Below are positions 17,589 through 44,153 of a stretch of DNA of 44,153 bases, piece by piece. Position numbers and translations under genes: made by a program. The notes under the pieces were generated by a model that was given only the letters and a program-made list of their open reading frames with translations, did no database searches and was not told where the DNA came from. Numbering within the stretch: the first letter of the stretch is position 1; every line of letters begins with the position of its first letter. The stretch is from a virus. Its lineage: Duplodnaviria > Heunggongvirae > Uroviricota > Caudoviricetes. The stretch is from the IMG/VR virus record IMGVR_UViG_2541047916_000003. The stretch is one strand, 5' to 3'.

Positions 17589-18671
17589 TTAGAACTGATA
17601 AACCAGACCTACAGCGACGATGTCGTCGGTATCAATACCAGCTGTTTTGGTAAACTTACTATCGTCAATTAAGTTGATTTTGTAATCAACAAAAGTGGAC
17701 ATGTTTTTATTAAAGTAGTAAGTAGCACCGACATCGACATACTTGACTAAGTCTCGGTCACCATGAACACCAAGGTCTTTACCTTTTGACTGAAGGTAAG
17801 CAACAGATGGACGCAGACCGAAGTCAAACTGATATTGTGCTACTGCTTCAAAGTTTTGTGCTTTGTTTGCAATATGGTTATTACCAAAAACGGTCATATT
17901 CTGAGTTTCAGAATATGTGGTAGCCAGATAGATATTGTTCGCATCATATTTCAGGCCTGCAGCCCATACTTCCGCATTTTTGCCGGAGGCATTGAATTTG
18001 CTCTTACCATAGGCGACCTGACCGTCAGTGCGATCTGATTTAGCATAGGTTGCACCCACGCCGAATCCTTCATACTCATAAGTAGTGGAGAAACCGAAAC
18101 CATCACCATTGGCTTCAGTTACGTCAGTGCGGTCATTTTTACCCTGATACTGAGCAGCAAAGTTCAGGCCATCGACCAGACCAAAGAAGTCGTTGTTACG
18201 ATAAGTTGCAACACCAGTAGTGCGACCAGTCATGAACACATCTGTTTGGGTCCAGGTATCACCACCGAATTCTGGCAGAACGTCAGTCCACGCACCGATG
18301 TCGTATGCTACACCGTAGTTACGGCCGTAATCGATTGAGCCGTAATCACCAAATTTCAGGCCTGCAAATGCAAGACGGGTTTTGTCTTTGGAAGAACCTT
18401 GAGATTCAGCACGGTTGCCTTTGAATTCATATTCCCACTGACCGAAACCAGTCAGTTGATCGTTGATTTGGGTTTCACCTTTGAAGCCAAGACGGGCATA
18501 AGTAGTATCACCATCATCTGCATCATTAGAGGAGAAGTAGTGCTTGGCATTAACTTTCCCGTATAGATCCAGCTTGTTACTGTCTTTATTATAAATTTCA
18601 GCTGCCTGAGCAGACATCGCCATCAGTACTGATGCAGCTACAGCAGAAATTGCCACTGTTAATTTTTTCAT
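17589..18671 (-). CDS. nmpC: outer-membrane porin (NmpC/Lc/OmpC family) moron
   Basis: Signal peptide [23 protein letters not shown]; ends in ..VGLVYQF beta-barrel terminal motif; uninterrupted; between Q and the lysis genes as in DLP12/PA-2. Confidence 0.9.
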
Positions 18672-19096
18672 TGTACGCCCTTTTTTTGAACTATTATTAA
18701 AAAATGATGTCACTGCGCGATAAATATTCATCTAATCAATGTGATTATTTCAAGATGTAAGTTTTAGTTTCTCATTTAATTTGTGAAGTAGATCTCTATT
18801 TTTATCTGAACCTTTTCTATCTAATCCTATTCATGGCTCTTGTCTGAACAAAAATAAATCTATTAGCTAATTTATATTAATGGCACTTATTTATAAGTGC
18901 TCTATAATTCTTTAGCTTAATTTAAACAAACTAAAAATAACATCGGAAATTATTAACTGGTTATTTGTTGAAGTTTTCTTATGCATTTGTGGTGGTGTTT
19001 TGAACACTCGGTGGCATTCTCACAAATATCATTTAGTAGTTTACGTACGTAAAAAATTGGTTATGCTGTTAAGAGTGGTTACTTCGTCACACAGCT

Positions 19097-41471: not shown

Positions 41472-41497
41472 GGGCGCCAGAAATGGCGCCTTTTTTA
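41472..41497 (+). terminator. rho-independent terminator after J
   Basis: GGCGCC-agaaat-GGCGCC followed by TTTTTTATTT. Confidence 0.6.
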
Positions 41498-41511
41498 TTT
41501 GTGGAGTGAAT

Positions 41512-43572
41512 ATGGCAGTACAGATTTCAGGCGTGCTGAAAGACGGTGCAGGAAAACCGATACAGAACTGCACCATTCAGCTCAAAGCAAAACGTAACAG
41601 CACCACGGTTGTGGTGAACACGGTGGCCTCAGAAAATCCGGATGAAGCCGGACGTTACAGCATGGATGTCGAGTATGGCCAGTACAGCGTTATCCTGCTG
41701 GTTGAAGGTTTTCCGCCTTCACATGCCGGGGCCATCACCGTGTATGAGGATTCTAAGCCGGGGACATTGAATGATTTTCTGGGCGCTGCAACAGAAGATG
41801 ATGTTCGTCCGGAGGCACTGTATCGTTTTGAAAAGATGGTGGAAGAGGTGGCACGCAACGCTGAAGCCGCCTCTCAGAGCGCAGCGGCAGCAAAGAAATC
41901 AGAAACAGCAGCGGCATCGTCCAGGAATGCGGCGAAAACATCAGAGACGAATGCAGGTAACAGCGCGAAAGCGGCAGCTTCTTCAAAAACAGCCGCACAA
42001 AACGCAGCAACAGCGGCAGAACGTTCAGAGACAAATGCCCGTGCGTCAGAAGAAGCCTCCGCAGACAGTGAAGAGGCTTCCCGCCGTAATGCAGAGTCAG
42101 CCGCTGAAAATGCCGGAGTCGCCACCACAAAAGCGCGGGAGGCCGCAGCAGACGCAACAAAGGCCGGGCAGAAAAAGGATGAGGCTCTGTCGGCAGCGAC
42201 ACGGGCTGAAAAGGCGGCAGACCGCGCAGAAGTCGCAGCGGAAGTGACTGCAGAGCCCTATGCGAATATAGTGCCGCCGCTGCCTGATGTGTGGATACCG
42301 TTTAACGATTCACTGGATATGATTGCGGGTTTTTCTCCGGGCTATAAAAAAATAGCTATTGGTGACGATGTGGTTCAGGTCGCCAGTGATAAACAGGTTA
42401 ATTTCAGTCGCGCATCAACGGCAACATATATCAACAAATCTGGCGAACTGAAAACGGCGGAAATTAATGAGCCGCGATTTGAGTGTGATGGCCTGCTTAT
42501 TGAGGGACAAAGAACGAACTACATGCTCAATTCGGAAAGTCCAGCCAGCTGGGGGAAGTCATCAAACATGGATGTGCCCGAAACCGGGACAGATAGTTTT
42601 GGTTTTACTTATGGAAAGTTTGTCTGCAACGATTCTCTGGTTGGGCAAACTTCGGCTATTAATATGGCATCAATTGCTGCAACAAAGTCAGTTGATGTCT
42701 CAGGCGATAACAAGTACGTGACAACCTCATGCCGTTTTAAAACAGAACGACAGGTAAGGTTACGTATACGGTTTGATAAGTATGATGGTAGTGCAACAAC
42801 TTTTCTTGGCGATGCGTACATTGATACGCAAACGCTTGAAATTAATATGACAGGTGGGGCTGCCGGCAGAATTACGGCACGAGTCAGGAAGGATAAGACC
42901 ACAGGCTGGATTTTTGCAGAGGCAACGATTCAGGCAATTGATGGTGAGTTAAAAATAGGCTCTCAGATACAGTATTCTCCTGAGCGGGGTGGGGCAACAG
43001 TATCTGGTGACTATATTTATCTTGCCACCCCACAAGTAGAGAATGGGCCGTGTGTATCATCATTTATTATTTCAGGAGGCAGCGCAACGACAAGAGCCAG
43101 TGATTTGGTTAGTATCCCCACCAGAAATAATCTTTATAAGTTACCATTTACTTTTTTACTTGAGATTCATAAAAACTGGGATATTGCACCAAACGCCGCA
43201 CCCCGCGTGTGGGATATAGCAGCAGCCAATACCGGGCAATCAGCAATTGCAGCAATCAACAGAGGTAGTGGTAAGTTATATATGAGTCTGTCAAACCCTT
43301 CAGGCTTGTATGTTAATAGCGCAGCGACAGATGTATTTGCAGAGAAAACCACATTTGGATGTATTGCAAAAGCTGATGGTCACTTTCATGTGGTGACAAA
43401 TGGTAAAGCGGTTAATGAAGTTTATTGTGAATATAATGGTGTGACCGCTGATAAAAATATCCGATTTGGAGGGCAGACGAATACTGGAGAACGACATCTG
43501 TTTGGCCATATTCGCAATTTCCGCATATGGCATAAAGAATTAAATGACAGGCAATTAAAAGAGGTCGTATGA
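41512..43572 (+). CDS. stf: side tail fibre protein (lambda Stf-like N-terminus, Ala-rich shaft, heterologous LamG/ConA-like C-terminal domain)
   Basis: N-terminus MAVQISGVLKDGAGKPIQNCTIQLKAKRNSTTVVVNTV matches lambda Stf as recalled; C-terminal ~430 aa AT-rich and unrelated to lambda. Confidence 0.8.
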   Translation: MAVQISGVLKDGAGKPIQNCTIQLKAKRNSTTVVVNTVASENPDEAGRYSMDVEYGQYSVILLVEGFPPSHAGAITVYEDSKPGTLNDFLGAATEDDVRPEALYRFEKMVEEVARNAEAASQSAAAAKKSETAAASSRNAAKTSETNAGNSAKAAASSKTAAQNAATAAERSETNARASEEASADSEEASRRNAESAAENAGVATTKAREAAADATKAGQKKDEALSAATRAEKAADRAEVAAEVTAEPYANIVPPLPDVWIPFNDSLDMIAGFSPGYKKIAIGDDVVQVASDKQVNFSRASTATYINKSGELKTAEINEPRFECDGLLIEGQRTNYMLNSESPASWGKSSNMDVPETGTDSFGFTYGKFVCNDSLVGQTSAINMASIAATKSVDVSGDNKYVTTSCRFKTERQVRLRIRFDKYDGSATTFLGDAYIDTQTLEINMTGGAAGRITARVRKDKTTGWIFAEATIQAIDGELKIGSQIQYSPERGGATVSGDYIYLATPQVENGPCVSSFIISGGSATTRASDLVSIPTRNNLYKLPFTFLLEIHKNWDIAPNAAPRVWDIAAANTGQSAIAAINRGSGKLYMSLSNPSGLYVNSAATDVFAEKTTFGCIAKADGHFHVVTNGKAVNEVYCEYNGVTADKNIRFGGQTNTGERHLFGHIRNFRIWHKELNDRQLKEVV

Positions 43573-43847
43573 AAGATTTAACTTTGAAGTTTCATGACAA
43601 ACTGCAGTTTAAGGCCTTCCTGTCATCTCTTGACTGGGAGGAGGATGAAGACCTCCAGAATAAACTGTTAGTCGATGAAATTGGTTTCACCTACACAGAA
43701 ACAGGGGTAACAGAAGAGGGAGAACCTGTCTGTGTCCGGAATGACGGTTATTTTGTCAACATTCGCATTCTTGATGACTTGTTTGATGTTTCTGTATTCT
43801 CTGATTATGTCGTGGAGCTGGAAACACCGCTTCGGGAATGGAGCTGA
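43569..43847 (+). CDS. acidic hypothetical protein (92 aa) coupled to the tail-fibre gene
   Basis: ATGA overlap with stf stop; occupies the position where a tail-fibre assembly protein is expected but is too short and unlike Tfa. Confidence 0.5.
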   Translation: MKDLTLKFHDKLQFKAFLSSLDWEEDEDLQNKLLVDEIGFTYTETGVTEEGEPVCVRNDGYFVNIRILDDLFDVSVFSDYVVELETPLREWS

Positions 43848-43859
43848 AAGGAGGAAATA

Positions 43860-44153
43860 ATGGATATAAGCCCCTTACTTCATGCGCTTTGTGCTGTGGC
43901 TGCGCAGATACTGGTTGGTCTTTTTACCGGAAACTGGGCTTACGGAGCGATAGCCGGTTGTACGTTCTTCATTGCGCGTGAACATACCCAGGCAGAATAT
44001 CGCTGGATTGAAATGTTCGGGCATGGCAAGCGAATGAATATGCCGTGGTGGGGCGGTTTTGATCCGCGAGCTTGGGATGTGGCAAGCCTGATGGATTTTG
44101 CTGTGCCGGTGGTGGCGTGTCTGCTGGTCTGGCTGTTGGTTAATCGTGGGTGA
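43860..44153 (+). CDS. small membrane protein (97 aa, about 3 hydrophobic segments)
   Basis: Strong AAGGAGG ribosome-binding site 7 nt upstream of the ATG; stop is the last codon of the window. Confidence 0.5.
   Translation: MDISPLLHALCAVAAQILVGLFTGNWAYGAIAGCTFFIAREHTQAEYRWIEMFGHGKRMNMPWWGGFDPRAWDVASLMDFAVPVVACLLVWLLVNRG

What the first reader, a model, noticed from the sequence alone, without database searches (positions are those of the whole stretch)
43569..44153. Two small genes replace the expected tail-fibre assembly gene downstream of stf
Lambda-type side fibres are normally followed by tfa, a chaperone of roughly 190 aa. Here the fibre gene is followed by a 92-aa acidic protein coupled by an ATGA overlap, then a 97-aa membrane protein with a strong ribosome-binding site whose stop is the last codon of the window. 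Neither looks like Tfa. They could be a novel fibre chaperone plus a membrane-associated moron (for example superinfection exclusion or receptor masking), or cargo near attR.
Basis: inference. Interest (0 to 1): 0.5.

Follow-up and report, generated by a model that had tools for sequence, protein, structure and literature searches.

The report
Fibre helper gene plus membrane cargo gene
The two small genes after the side-fibre gene are real and common in E. coli prophages: the first always travels with one type of sugar-binding fibre tip and probably helps build it, while the second is an independent, very conserved membrane-protein cargo gene, and neither has been studied experimentally.

Summary
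The window holds a 92-aa acidic ORF (43569-43847, ATGA overlap with stf) and a 97-aa three-helix membrane ORF (43860-44153, GGAGG ribosome-binding site).

Neither gene is peculiar to this window. The DNA is 100% identical to phage 21 genes 23/24, phage ev017 and the E. coli type strain. 35% of complete E. coli genomes have a match, always annotated "hypothetical".

The window ends at the orfB stop only because a prophage-boundary caller cut there. In the complete phages sitDCBA, attP and int follow, and there is no tfa.

The fibre shares only its N-terminus with lambda Stf. Its C-terminal 434 aa is a different, lectin-type module.

orfA immediately follows that module, including in virulent T1-, T5-, 9g-, Dhillon- and rV5-like phages. 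It is best read as a dedicated fibre accessory, either a chaperone or a tip subunit. It is not homologous to Tfa.

orfB is unlinked to orfA. It occurs across Proteobacteria, partly as a chromosomal gene. In phages it sits in the classical cargo slots after receptor-binding genes. It carries an almost invariant polar motif and has no known relatives. The biochemical function of both remains inferred.

The parts
41472..41491 (+). Terminator-like hairpin (GGGCGCCAGAAATGGCGCC followed by a T-run) between J and stf. No comparable site lies between stf, orfA and orfB.
   Evidence: Scan of the identical phage 21 locus and the window sequence. Phage 21 annotates a terminator here.
41506..42267 (+). 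5' part of the side-tail-fibre gene: lambda-Stf-like N-terminal anchor (PF08400) plus an Ala-rich shaft. The likely true start is the ATG at 41512.
   Evidence: Pfam PF08400 at E 1e-68 over residues 3-133. The phage 21 CDS starts at the equivalent of 41512. GGAG lies at 41503-41506.
42268..43572 (+). C-terminal 434-aa fibre module (StfC): a GTA head-spike-fibre-like domain plus a ConA/laminin-G-like lectin domain. It has no Peptidase_S74 intramolecular chaperone. This is the unit with which orfA travels.
   Evidence: NF048003 over residues 331-531 and PF13385 over 562-683. The module is found in 228 phage records. It is 54% identical in an unrelated prophage whose fibre has a different N-terminus.
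43569..43847 (+). orfA: 92 aa, pI 4.1, a compact alpha/beta domain. It equals phage 21 gp23 and belongs to phrog_1361. The probable role is fibre accessory (assembly chaperone or tip subunit). Its start overlaps the stf stop (ATGA, 43569-43572).
43848..43859 (+). 12-nt spacer with the ribosome-binding site AAGGAGG (43848-43854), 5 nt before the orfB ATG. The same spacing occurs in the phage-21-type and the 63%-identity orfA allele classes.
   Evidence: Sequence. The 'gap 16' pattern across loci.
43860..44153 (+). orfB: 97 aa, three hydrophobic helices. It carries the invariant motif AREHTQAEYRWI...R.NMPWWGGFD.R.W plus D2, H8, Q16, C34, D79 and P83. It equals phage 21 gp24 and belongs to phrog_1443. 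It is an independent, mobile membrane-protein cargo gene.

Best explanation
The fibre locus here is a mosaic of three units.

(1) The fibre. The side-fibre gene joins a lambda-type N-terminal anchor to a different, glycan-binding C-terminal module (StfC). It is not the lambda/T4-gp37-type tip that needs Tfa.

(2) orfA. This gene is the dedicated partner of the StfC module. It is translationally coupled to the fibre gene, so it should be made in step with it, and it is inherited with the module's 3' end wherever the module goes. The most likely role is a trans-acting assembly factor for the lectin-type tip. It could work as a folding or oligomerisation chaperone, possibly staying bound as a cap or tip subunit. 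That would fill the niche that Tfa or the Peptidase_S74 intramolecular chaperone fill for other fibres. One orfA allele serves modules that are only about 40-73% identical to the window's module. So orfA probably recognises the conserved last roughly 40 residues or the common fold, not the specificity-determining surface.

(3) orfB. This gene is an unrelated, horizontally mobile inner-membrane protein that has landed at the end of the late operon. The same family occupies the cargo slots behind receptor-binding genes in lambdoid, P22-like and P2-like phages, and it is a resident chromosomal gene in Aeromonas and other Proteobacteria. Its invariant polar residues point to a conserved cellular target or ligand rather than a fast-evolving phage partner. 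These residues lie in a loop predicted to face the cytoplasm and inside the membrane helices. The most likely benefit to the phage is alteration of the envelope or of an entry step (lysogenic conversion or superinfection exclusion).

Shown: gene reality, linkage patterns, distribution and lack of homology to known families. Inferred: chaperone activity, membrane topology and the exclusion or conversion role.
For: Fibre:
- Stf has no Peptidase_S74 domain.

orfA linkage to the fibre module:
- In an unrelated E. coli prophage, a 671-704-aa protein with a different N-terminus carries the module at 54% identity. An orfA homologue at 57% identity follows it with a TAATG overlap, and there is no orfB.
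- tblastn finds orfA in 145 phage records. In nearly every annotated row shown, the match overlaps the 3' end of a gene annotated as a tail protein or tail fibre. These include virulent T1-like (tonn gp59), T5-like (IrisVonRoten gp23), 9g-like and Dhillonvirus phages.
- Modules at only 26-39% identity in rV5-like, SP15-like and Aeromonas T5-like phages are still followed at once by small ORFs. Two of these match the orfA profile strongly, at hhalign probability 98.4% and 98.1%. The Aeromonas one matches weakly, at E 2e-4 and probability 45%.
- In 168 fetched loci, every orfA sits 0-3 nt after a StfC module, except copies disrupted by an IS element or a frameshift.
- orfA identity tracks the last 40 fibre residues (Spearman rho 0.72) but hardly the rest of the module (rho 0.22).
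- orfA is under purifying selection and is almost always intact.
- The predicted fold is confident (pLDDT 90).

orfB independence:
- Its taxonomic range is far wider than that of orfA.
- Its contexts vary. It follows a giant GpJ in Comamonas. It stands alone between pirin and RIO1 genes in Aeromonas, where the flanking ORF pattern is similar in several species. It sits between two tailspike genes on a Salmonella contig, and after a P2-like fibre in Leclercia.
- In P22-like phages it lies between the tailspike gene and int, next to an OafA O-acetylase in one phage and behind a terminator-like hairpin in another.
- In phiHAP-1 it lies between a tfa-like gene and the sheath gene.
- Some lambdoid prophages have a second fibre gene between orfA and orfB.
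- GC content differs: 42.7% for orfA and 53.1% for orfB.
- The K+R distribution favours a cytoplasmic loop. dN/dS is about 0.1-0.2.
Against: - No experiment or complex model links orfA physically to the fibre.
- The correlation of orfA with the last 40 fibre codons could reflect physical linkage alone.
- In many virulent phages a second fibre gene follows orfA, which fits an adaptor role as well as a chaperone role.
- In this window orfB has no promoter-like or terminator-like site of its own. It would be transcribed with the late operon, which is not typical of a lysogenic-conversion moron.
- orfB is absent from PADLOC.
- The extreme conservation of orfB and its chromosomal copies in varied housekeeping neighbourhoods give no functional partner. 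The exclusion or conversion role therefore rests on position only.
Confidence: 0.55

Rival explanations
1. orfA is a structural subunit rather than a chaperone. In this reading it is a small adaptor that stays on the virion at the end of the proximal fibre. There it provides or stabilises the docking site for a second, distal fibre protein. In phage-21-type prophages the second fibre has been lost and the adaptor retained.
For: - In T5-like, T1-like and some lambdoid loci orfA lies exactly between the proximal fibre gene and a second fibre gene.
- Seven of the eight second-fibre proteins aligned share a conserved N-terminal peptide, MAT.TVIP.DITKLK, across these phage groups. This suggests one common docking partner.
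- One orfA allele serves many different receptor-binding modules.
Against: - orfA is fully conserved and under purifying selection in the fetched prophage loci where orfB follows it after only a 12-nt spacer, leaving no room for a second fibre gene. It is also kept in rV5-like phages, where the next gene is a distal tail protein.
- The published AlphaFold-Multimer model of IrisVonRoten attaches Gp24 to the proximal fibre without invoking the small protein (PMC11990801).
Confidence: 0.25
2. orfB acts in the lytic cycle rather than in the lysogen. It would be a late-expressed inner-membrane factor made with the tail fibres. Possible roles are tuning envelope or glycan synthesis or lysis late in infection so that progeny are not trapped on debris.
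For: - In the window it is 12 nt behind orfA with a strong ribosome-binding site. No intervening terminator-like or promoter-like site was found.
- Homologues or fragments occur in phages without integrases. Examples are jumbo Aeromonas phages, siphophage HC6 and a 160-kb Salmonella contig with several tailspike genes.
Against: - In the P22-like phage Gally it lies behind a terminator-like hairpin in the tailspike-int conversion slot.
- Many copies are stand-alone chromosomal genes with no phage genes nearby.
- Several copies in virulent phages are truncated or unannotated remnants.
Confidence: 0.2
3. orfA and orfB form one functional pair, with a membrane-anchored assembly platform plus chaperone that together replace Tfa.
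For: They are adjacent with a fixed 12-nt spacer in the phage-21-type and 63%-identity allele classes, which make up most E. coli lambdoid copies.
Against: - orfA occurs without orfB in the T1-, T5-, rV5-like and prophage loci checked (tonn, tunus, IrisVonRoten, SP15, CarlMeissner and the pb9-type prophage).
- orfB occurs without orfA or the module in 51 fetched loci and in chromosomes.
- A second fibre gene can separate them.
- Their GC content and taxonomic ranges differ.
Confidence: 0.04
4. The ORFs are non-functional leftovers, either chance ORFs or decaying genes.
For: No function is known, and every public annotation reads 'hypothetical'.
Against: - Strong PHROG matches.
- Hundreds of homologue clusters.
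- dN/dS well below 1 and 166 of 167 copies intact.
- Confident predicted folds.
- Conserved translational coupling.
Confidence: 0.01

Closest known systems
Tail fibre assembly proteins Tfa/gpG/gpU (Pfam PF02413, Caudo_TAP) of lambda, P2 and Mu
   Same: The gene lies immediately downstream of the fibre gene, is translationally coupled to it, and moves by recombination together with the 3' end of the fibre gene. The niche it would fill is folding or capping of the receptor-binding tip.
C-terminal intramolecular chaperone (Peptidase_S74, PF13884) of T5 pb1, DT57C LtfA/LtfB and K1F endosialidase
   Same: It serves lateral fibres of the same phage groups (T5-like, lambdoid). The fibres that carry orfA are those lacking this domain, so orfA may be the trans-acting alternative.
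   Different: The Peptidase_S74 domain is encoded in cis and removes itself by cleavage. orfA is a separate gene with no similarity to it. In several loci an S74-bearing second fibre sits just after orfA.
Transient chaperone caps on Alteromonas phage tail fibres (Gonzalez-Serrano et al. 2023, PMC10579305; cited in PMC11990801)
   Same: A small protein encoded after the fibre gene, shared between distantly related phages together with the fibre. It is proposed to stay on the tip and mask binding until release.
   Different: No homology was tested or seen. Whether orfA remains bound to the fibre is unknown.
Cargo genes behind receptor-binding genes. Examples are P2 Z/fun, HK97 gp15, lambda lom, Cor/Llp lipoproteins, P22 gtrABC and Sf6 oac (from established knowledge of these phages)
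   Same: orfB occupies the same genomic slots: the end of the lambdoid fibre operon, the P22-like tailspike-int gap, and the P2-like fibre-sheath gap. Like several of these it is a small envelope protein.
   Different: orfB has no sequence similarity to any family in Pfam, NCBIfam or PADLOC. It has no lipobox. It is far more conserved across hosts than typical exclusion proteins. It also exists as a resident chromosomal gene in several genera. In this window it lacks its own promoter and terminator.
RcGTA head-spike fibre domain (NCBIfam NF048003) and galectin/ConA-like domains on lateral fibres (IrisVonRoten Gp22, PMC11990801)
   Same: The C-terminal module of the window's fibre matches NF048003 and Laminin_G_3. 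It is 52% identical to the C-terminal module of IrisVonRoten Gp22, whose C-terminus was modelled with a protruding galectin-like domain.
   Different: The published models and text do not mention the 92-aa product of the next gene (gp23).

Membership tests
Tfa / Caudo_TAP tail fibre assembly protein (PF02413) | Sequence match to the PF02413 profile | tested here: not met
   hmmscan of orfA and orfB against Pfam at E<=1 gave only spurious LUD_dom and PhoR hits. NCBIfam gave none.
Tfa / Caudo_TAP tail fibre assembly protein (PF02413) | Gene directly downstream of the fibre gene and co-inherited with its 3' end | tested here: met
   orfA has an ATGA overlap with stf in the window. A 0-3 nt gap separates it from the module in all loci except disrupted copies. 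The arrangement is conserved in virulent phages.
Tfa / Caudo_TAP tail fibre assembly protein (PF02413) | Required for fibre folding or trimerisation, and binds the fibre tip | not testable with these tools
   This needs co-expression, pull-down or a multimer model.
Intramolecular chaperone fibres (Peptidase_S74, PF13884) | PF13884 domain at the C-terminus of the fibre | tested here: not met
   The window's Stf has PF08400, NF048003 and Laminin_G_3 but no PF13884.
Lambda-type side tail fibre (Stf) | N-terminal prophage tail-fibre anchor domain (PF08400) | tested here: met
   PF08400 at E 1e-68 over residues 3-133.
Lambda-type side tail fibre (Stf) | Lambda/T4-gp37-like C-terminal tip that depends on Tfa | tested here: not met
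   The C-terminal 434 aa match phrog_1419, NF048003 and Laminin_G_3 instead. No tfa lies downstream in the complete phages.
phrog_1361 (orfA) and phrog_1443 (orfB), both of unknown function | Full-length profile match | tested here: met
   E 8e-42 over 1-91 of 92 positions, and E 2e-58 over 1-96 of 97 positions.
Known anti-phage defence or exclusion proteins (PADLOC-DB) | Match to any PADLOC model | tested here: not met
   No hits for either protein at E<=1.
Cor/Llp-type exclusion lipoproteins | Signal peptide with a lipobox cysteine | tested here: not met
   The only N-terminal Cys in orfB (C11, context LHALC) has Leu at position -1 and is not conserved in the family alignment.
Moron (autonomous cargo gene with its own promoter and terminator) | Own promoter and terminator flanking the gene | tested here: inconclusive
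   In the identical phage 21 locus, no promoter-like or terminator-like site lies between stf and the end of orfB. In the P22-like phage Gally, a terminator-like hairpin and a weak promoter-like site precede orfB. These are consensus scans only.
Moron (autonomous cargo gene with its own promoter and terminator) | Presence or absence independent of the neighbouring structural genes, in varied phage backbones | tested here: met
   orfB is found after lambdoid, P22-like and P2-like receptor-binding genes and after several tailspike genes on a Salmonella contig, and in chromosomes. It is absent from most virulent phages that carry orfA.

The most novel reading that the evidence does not exclude
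orfB founds an unrecognised class of small inner-membrane proteins, conserved from Alpha- to Gammaproteobacteria. Through its invariant His/Asp/Glu/Arg/Trp cluster it would bind or modify a universal envelope component, such as a lipid-linked glycan intermediate or a conserved membrane enzyme. Phages of at least three architectures would have captured it repeatedly, behind their glycan-binding receptor proteins, as a new kind of conversion or exclusion factor. Alongside it, orfA would found a new, non-Tfa family of trans-acting chaperones or caps for lectin-type fibre tips.
Probability: 0.2. Interest if true: 0.65.

Novelty: new variant of a known kind. Interest (0 to 1): 0.4.

Why it matters
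The fibre module plus orfA cassette occurs in more than 200 sequenced coliphages, Salmonella phages and Aeromonas phages. These include model phages used for host-range work (BASEL phages, phage 21, T1-, T5- and rV5-like phages), and about a third of complete E. coli genomes have a match to the two-gene stretch. Anyone who transplants or models these lateral fibres currently ignores the 92-aa gene. If the protein is needed for folding, or stays on the tip, engineered fibres will fail or behave differently without it.

orfB is one of the better-conserved unannotated small membrane proteins in Proteobacteria. It sits where phages keep envelope-modifying and exclusion genes, so a simple expression screen could reveal a new host-surface or entry-blocking function.

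The finding is not a surprise in kind. Fibre genes are normally followed by helper genes and by cargo.

Tried and rejected
- Pfam, NCBIfam, PADLOC and PDB sequence searches with the single proteins and with profiles found nothing for either protein.
Probability was 0.2%, so the hit is spurious and reflects transmembrane composition.
- Foldseek against BFVD gave only uncharacterised 80-100-aa phage proteins. The afdb50 library was unavailable.
- A search for domain fusions that might hint at function found none. The listed top hits are all small stand-alone proteins: 58-146 aa for orfB (150 of 438 clusters listed) and about 90-150 aa for orfA (120 of 317 listed).
- A search for a conserved operon partner of chromosomal orfB found none. 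The neighbours are unrelated housekeeping genes: pirin, PNPase, a porin, PFOR, a MetE-like protein, an ABC transporter and cyclopropane-fatty-acid synthase.
- I tried to use the rV5 virion proteome to see whether the orfA homologue is structural. rV5 itself lacks the module and the small ORF, because ORF41 is followed directly by ORF40, so the data do not apply.
- Literature searches found no functional statement about either protein. The sources checked were the two BASEL papers, the DT57C paper, the KanT1 paper and the phage 21 genome announcement.
- The Synechococcus phage S-CAM4 gene downstream of a distant module is not an orfA homologue.
Full report
**1. The observation**

The coordinates are correct. 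The fibre gene ends at 43572, and its TGA stop overlaps the ATG of a 92-aa ORF (43569-43847) in an ATGA. Twelve bases later, after AAGGAGG, a 97-aa ORF (43860-44153) begins. Its TGA stop is the last codon of the window.

orfA is acidic, with pI 4.1 and 22 D+E against 8 K+R. orfB is hydrophobic. Its AlphaFold2 model has three long helices at residues 4-23, 26-53 and 74-96, with mean pLDDT 93. The orfA model is a compact alpha/beta domain with pLDDT 90.

Both are real genes:
- They match phrog_1361 at E 8e-42 and phrog_1443 at E 2e-58, both of unknown function.
- They have hundreds of homologue clusters.
- 166 of 167 orfA copies in the fetched loci are intact.
- dN/dS against close alleles is 0.13-0.41 for orfA and mostly 0.1-0.2 for orfB.

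Neither protein matches Tfa or anything else in Pfam, NCBIfam, PADLOC or the PDB.

**2. Where the window comes from, and why it stops here**

The 754 bases around the finding are 100% identical to phage 21 (genes CPT_21_23 "hypothetical" and CPT_21_24 "putative membrane protein"), to phage ev017 and to PhiR63_2. The first 22 kb of the window are 100% identical to ev017 and PhiR57_1, with the integrase gene at the left end. A 100% copy also sits in the E. coli type strain ATCC 11775.

In phage 21, PhiR63_2 and 4A7 the next genes are sitDCBA on the opposite strand. In phage 21 these are followed by small ORFs, an icd remnant, attP and int. No tfa is present.

Many IMG/VR prophage contigs stop at exactly the orfB stop codon. 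The window edge is therefore an artefact of prophage-boundary calling. About 5.3-5.7 kb of prophage is missing, by comparison of the orfB position with the record lengths.

A DNA match to the two-gene stretch is present in 1903 of 5426 complete E. coli genomes, up to seven times per genome. RefSeq annotates both genes as "hypothetical protein".

**3. The fibre is not a lambda-type fibre at its business end**

Only residues 3-133 are the lambda-Stf-like anchor (PF08400). After an Ala-rich shaft, the last 434 residues are a different module. They match the GTA head-spike-fibre domain (NF048003, residues 331-531) and a ConA/laminin-G-like lectin domain (residues 562-683), and they fall in phrog_1419. 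The fibre has no Peptidase_S74 intramolecular chaperone. So "tfa is missing" is better put as "the whole tip-plus-helper cassette is of another type".

**4. orfA belongs to that module**

- A 57%-identical orfA homologue lies in an unrelated E. coli prophage with a fused protease-capsid gene and pb9-like tail genes. It sits directly after a 671-704-aa protein whose N-terminus is unrelated to the window's fibre. The last 434 residues of that protein are 54% identical to the window's module. The two genes overlap in TAATG, and no orfB follows.
- tblastn finds orfA in 145 phage records. In nearly every annotated row shown, the match overlaps the 3' end of a gene annotated as a tail protein or tail fibre. 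The hosts of this cassette include virulent T1-like (tonn gp59), T5-like (IrisVonRoten gp23, between Gp22 and Gp24), 9g-like (JenP1) and Dhillonvirus phages, and a 108-kb phage-plasmid.
- The module alone is found in 228 records.
- The three divergent groups checked, which the orfA tblastn had not flagged, still have a small ORF abutting the module:
  - CarlMeissner (rV5-like, module 39% identical), a 110-aa ORF, hhalign probability 98.4% against the orfA profile.
  - SP15 (T5-like, module 36% identical), an 88-aa ORF, probability 98.1%.
  - AhP_Mru1 (an Aeromonas T5-like phage, module 26% identical), a 104-aa ORF. This match is weaker, at E 2e-4 and probability 45%.
- Across 168 fetched loci, every orfA lies 0-3 nt after a module. 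The exceptions are an IS66-type insertion in the 4A7 group and frameshifted copies.

This is the pattern expected of a fibre accessory. It rules out an unrelated moron.

**5. What kind of accessory**

orfA alleles do not co-vary with the variable part of the module. The 91-96% alleles also serve modules only about 40% identical to the window's. The 63% allele serves modules that are 53, 62 or 73% identical. orfA identity tracks the last 40 fibre residues (Spearman rho 0.72) far better than the rest of the module (rho 0.22). That may be plain linkage. It also fits binding to the conserved C-terminal strands, or to the common fold, rather than to the specificity surface.

In T1-like and T5-like phages and in some lambdoid prophages, a second fibre gene follows orfA. 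Seven of the eight second-fibre proteins aligned share an N-terminal peptide, MAT.TVIP.DITKLK. An adaptor or tip-subunit role is therefore a serious rival.

Against the adaptor role, orfA is kept intact in the phage-21-type prophage loci and in rV5-like phages, where no second fibre gene follows it.

My reading is a trans-acting assembly chaperone or cap of the lectin-type tip. That orfA works with the fibre is about 85% likely. That it is specifically a chaperone is about 45% likely.

**6. orfB is a separate story**

Its family is much wider than that of orfA. It spans Escherichia, Salmonella, Citrobacter, Leclercia, Silvania, Pantoea, Aeromonas, Halomonas, Comamonas, Acidovorax, Pigmentiphaga, Chelativorans, sphingomonads and Desulfovibrio. 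It forms 438 clusters at 50% identity. The listed members are all 58-146 aa and none is fused to another domain.

The alignment has a striking invariant set: D2, H8, Q16, G29, C34, R40-E41, T43-I50, R58, M61-P62, G65-D68, W72, D79 and P83. Identity is still 45-60% between the E. coli prophage copy and chromosomal copies in other classes of Proteobacteria. The K+R distribution puts the conserved loop (residues 40-73) and the N-terminus in the cytoplasm. This is an inference from the positive-inside rule.

Its contexts:
- After a 2520-aa GpJ in Comamonas.
- Stand-alone between pirin and RIO1 genes in Aeromonas, with a similar flanking ORF pattern in several species.
- Between two tailspike genes on a 160-kb Salmonella contig.
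- After a P2-like fibre in Leclercia.
- Between the tailspike gene and int in P22-like coliphages. In Gally it lies behind a terminator-like hairpin, and in 611R6 it lies next to an OafA O-acetylase.
- Between a tfa-like gene and the sheath gene in phiHAP-1.

From established knowledge of these phages, the last two positions are the slots where P22 carries gtrABC, Sf6 carries oac and P2 carries Z/fun.

Of the two ORFs upstream of orfB at 43 loci from the one-genome-per-species scan, some are tail-fibre or J proteins. Many others are housekeeping genes.

orfA occurs without orfB in the virulent phages checked. orfB occurs without orfA in 51 fetched loci. A second fibre gene can separate them. 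GC content differs, at 42.7% against 53.1%.

orfB is therefore mobile cargo that repeatedly lands behind glycan-binding receptor genes. It is not part of a Tfa replacement. Its function is unknown. The position argues for an envelope or entry-related benefit to the phage (conversion or exclusion, about 35% likely). The conservation argues for a universal cellular target or ligand.

In this window orfB has no promoter-like or terminator-like site of its own. Expression with the late operon is therefore the default, and a late lytic role is a live rival.

**7. Comparison with the known, and novelty**

In function and position, orfA resembles Tfa, T4 gp38, the cis-acting S74 chaperone and the "chaperone caps" of Alteromonas phages. 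It fails the sequence and fold tests for membership of Tfa and of S74.

In position, orfB resembles Z/fun, HK97 gp15, Cor/Llp and the gtr/oac cargo genes. It matches no profile in Pfam, NCBIfam or PADLOC.

The sequences themselves are long public (phage 21 genes 23 and 24) and very common. What is new is the recognition of a conserved module-plus-orfA cassette across temperate and virulent sipho- and myoviruses, and of orfB as a broadly conserved family that occupies phage cargo slots. I rate this as a new variant of known kinds, of moderate interest.

**8. Verdict**

- Right in spirit for both genes.
- Wrong in treating Tfa as expected here.
- Wrong in implying that the genes are unusual.
- Wrong in placing them near attR.

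Noticed in passing
window 44153 (right end); L018-L022, L025-L031: The window ends exactly at the orfB stop codon, and so do many IMG/VR prophage contigs. This is a boundary-caller artefact. The real prophage continues for about 5.3-5.7 kb. In phage 21 that stretch holds the sitDCBA iron/manganese transporter cargo, small ORFs, an icd remnant and attP.
   Followed up: yes
window 41506-41514: The mechanical ORF start of stf is the GTG at 41506. The ATG at 41512, with GGAG at 41503-41506, is the start annotated in phage 21 and is more plausible. The fibre would then be 686 aa.
   Followed up: partly
window 41472-41491: A terminator-like hairpin followed by a T-run lies between J and stf, and phage 21 annotates it as a terminator. 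Fibre-operon expression may therefore depend on read-through or antitermination.
   Followed up: partly
window 41753-42247 (both strands): Long overlapping ORFs in other frames (149, 158 and 84 aa) coincide with the Ala-rich, repetitive shaft region of stf. They are almost certainly artefacts of its composition.
   Followed up: no
L221 2417-4833 (phage 4A7; also 1W, 3W, D2): A three-gene transposase insertion, which looks like an IS66-type element, truncates the 3' end of the fibre gene just upstream of orfA. orfA, orfB and sitDCBA remain intact.
   Followed up: partly
L172 4918-5958, L174 5286-5990, L013 4292-4966, L225 4096-4833, L224 4087-5835, L012 5289-7013: Seven of the eight second-fibre proteins aligned (encoded after orfA in lambdoid, T1-like and T5-like phages) share a conserved N-terminal peptide, MAT.TVIP.DITKLK. 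Their tips differ. This looks like a common docking peptide for a branched fibre.
   Followed up: partly
phage-collection hits (for example MG065692 'Campylobacter phage C13', MG065654 'C15', 'Listeria phage LM 4-11-1'): GenBank records labelled as Campylobacter or Listeria phages carry coliphage-type T5-like or rV5-like fibre cassettes at up to 100% identity to E. coli phages. They are probably mislabelled or contaminant records.
   Followed up: no
L228 2405-3958 (phage vB_EcoP-611R6): In this P22-like phage an OafA/YrhL-type LPS O-acetylase and a 37-aa 'tail fiber' remnant lie between the tailspike gene and orfB. This suggests that orfB arrived there with a piece of a fibre locus.
   Followed up: no
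window 17589-18731 (-): A 380-aa ORF lies in the stretch that ev017 and PhiR57_1 annotate with a porin (OmpC/NmpC/OmpD-like). I did not confirm that this ORF is the porin gene. If it is, the prophage carries a further envelope cargo gene.
   Followed up: no
L005 5398-11419 (Salmonella contig ABBGAK010000009, 160 kb): An orfB homologue lies between two tailspike genes (Tail_spike_N plus pectate-lyase fold), next to baseplate-wedge genes.
   Followed up: no
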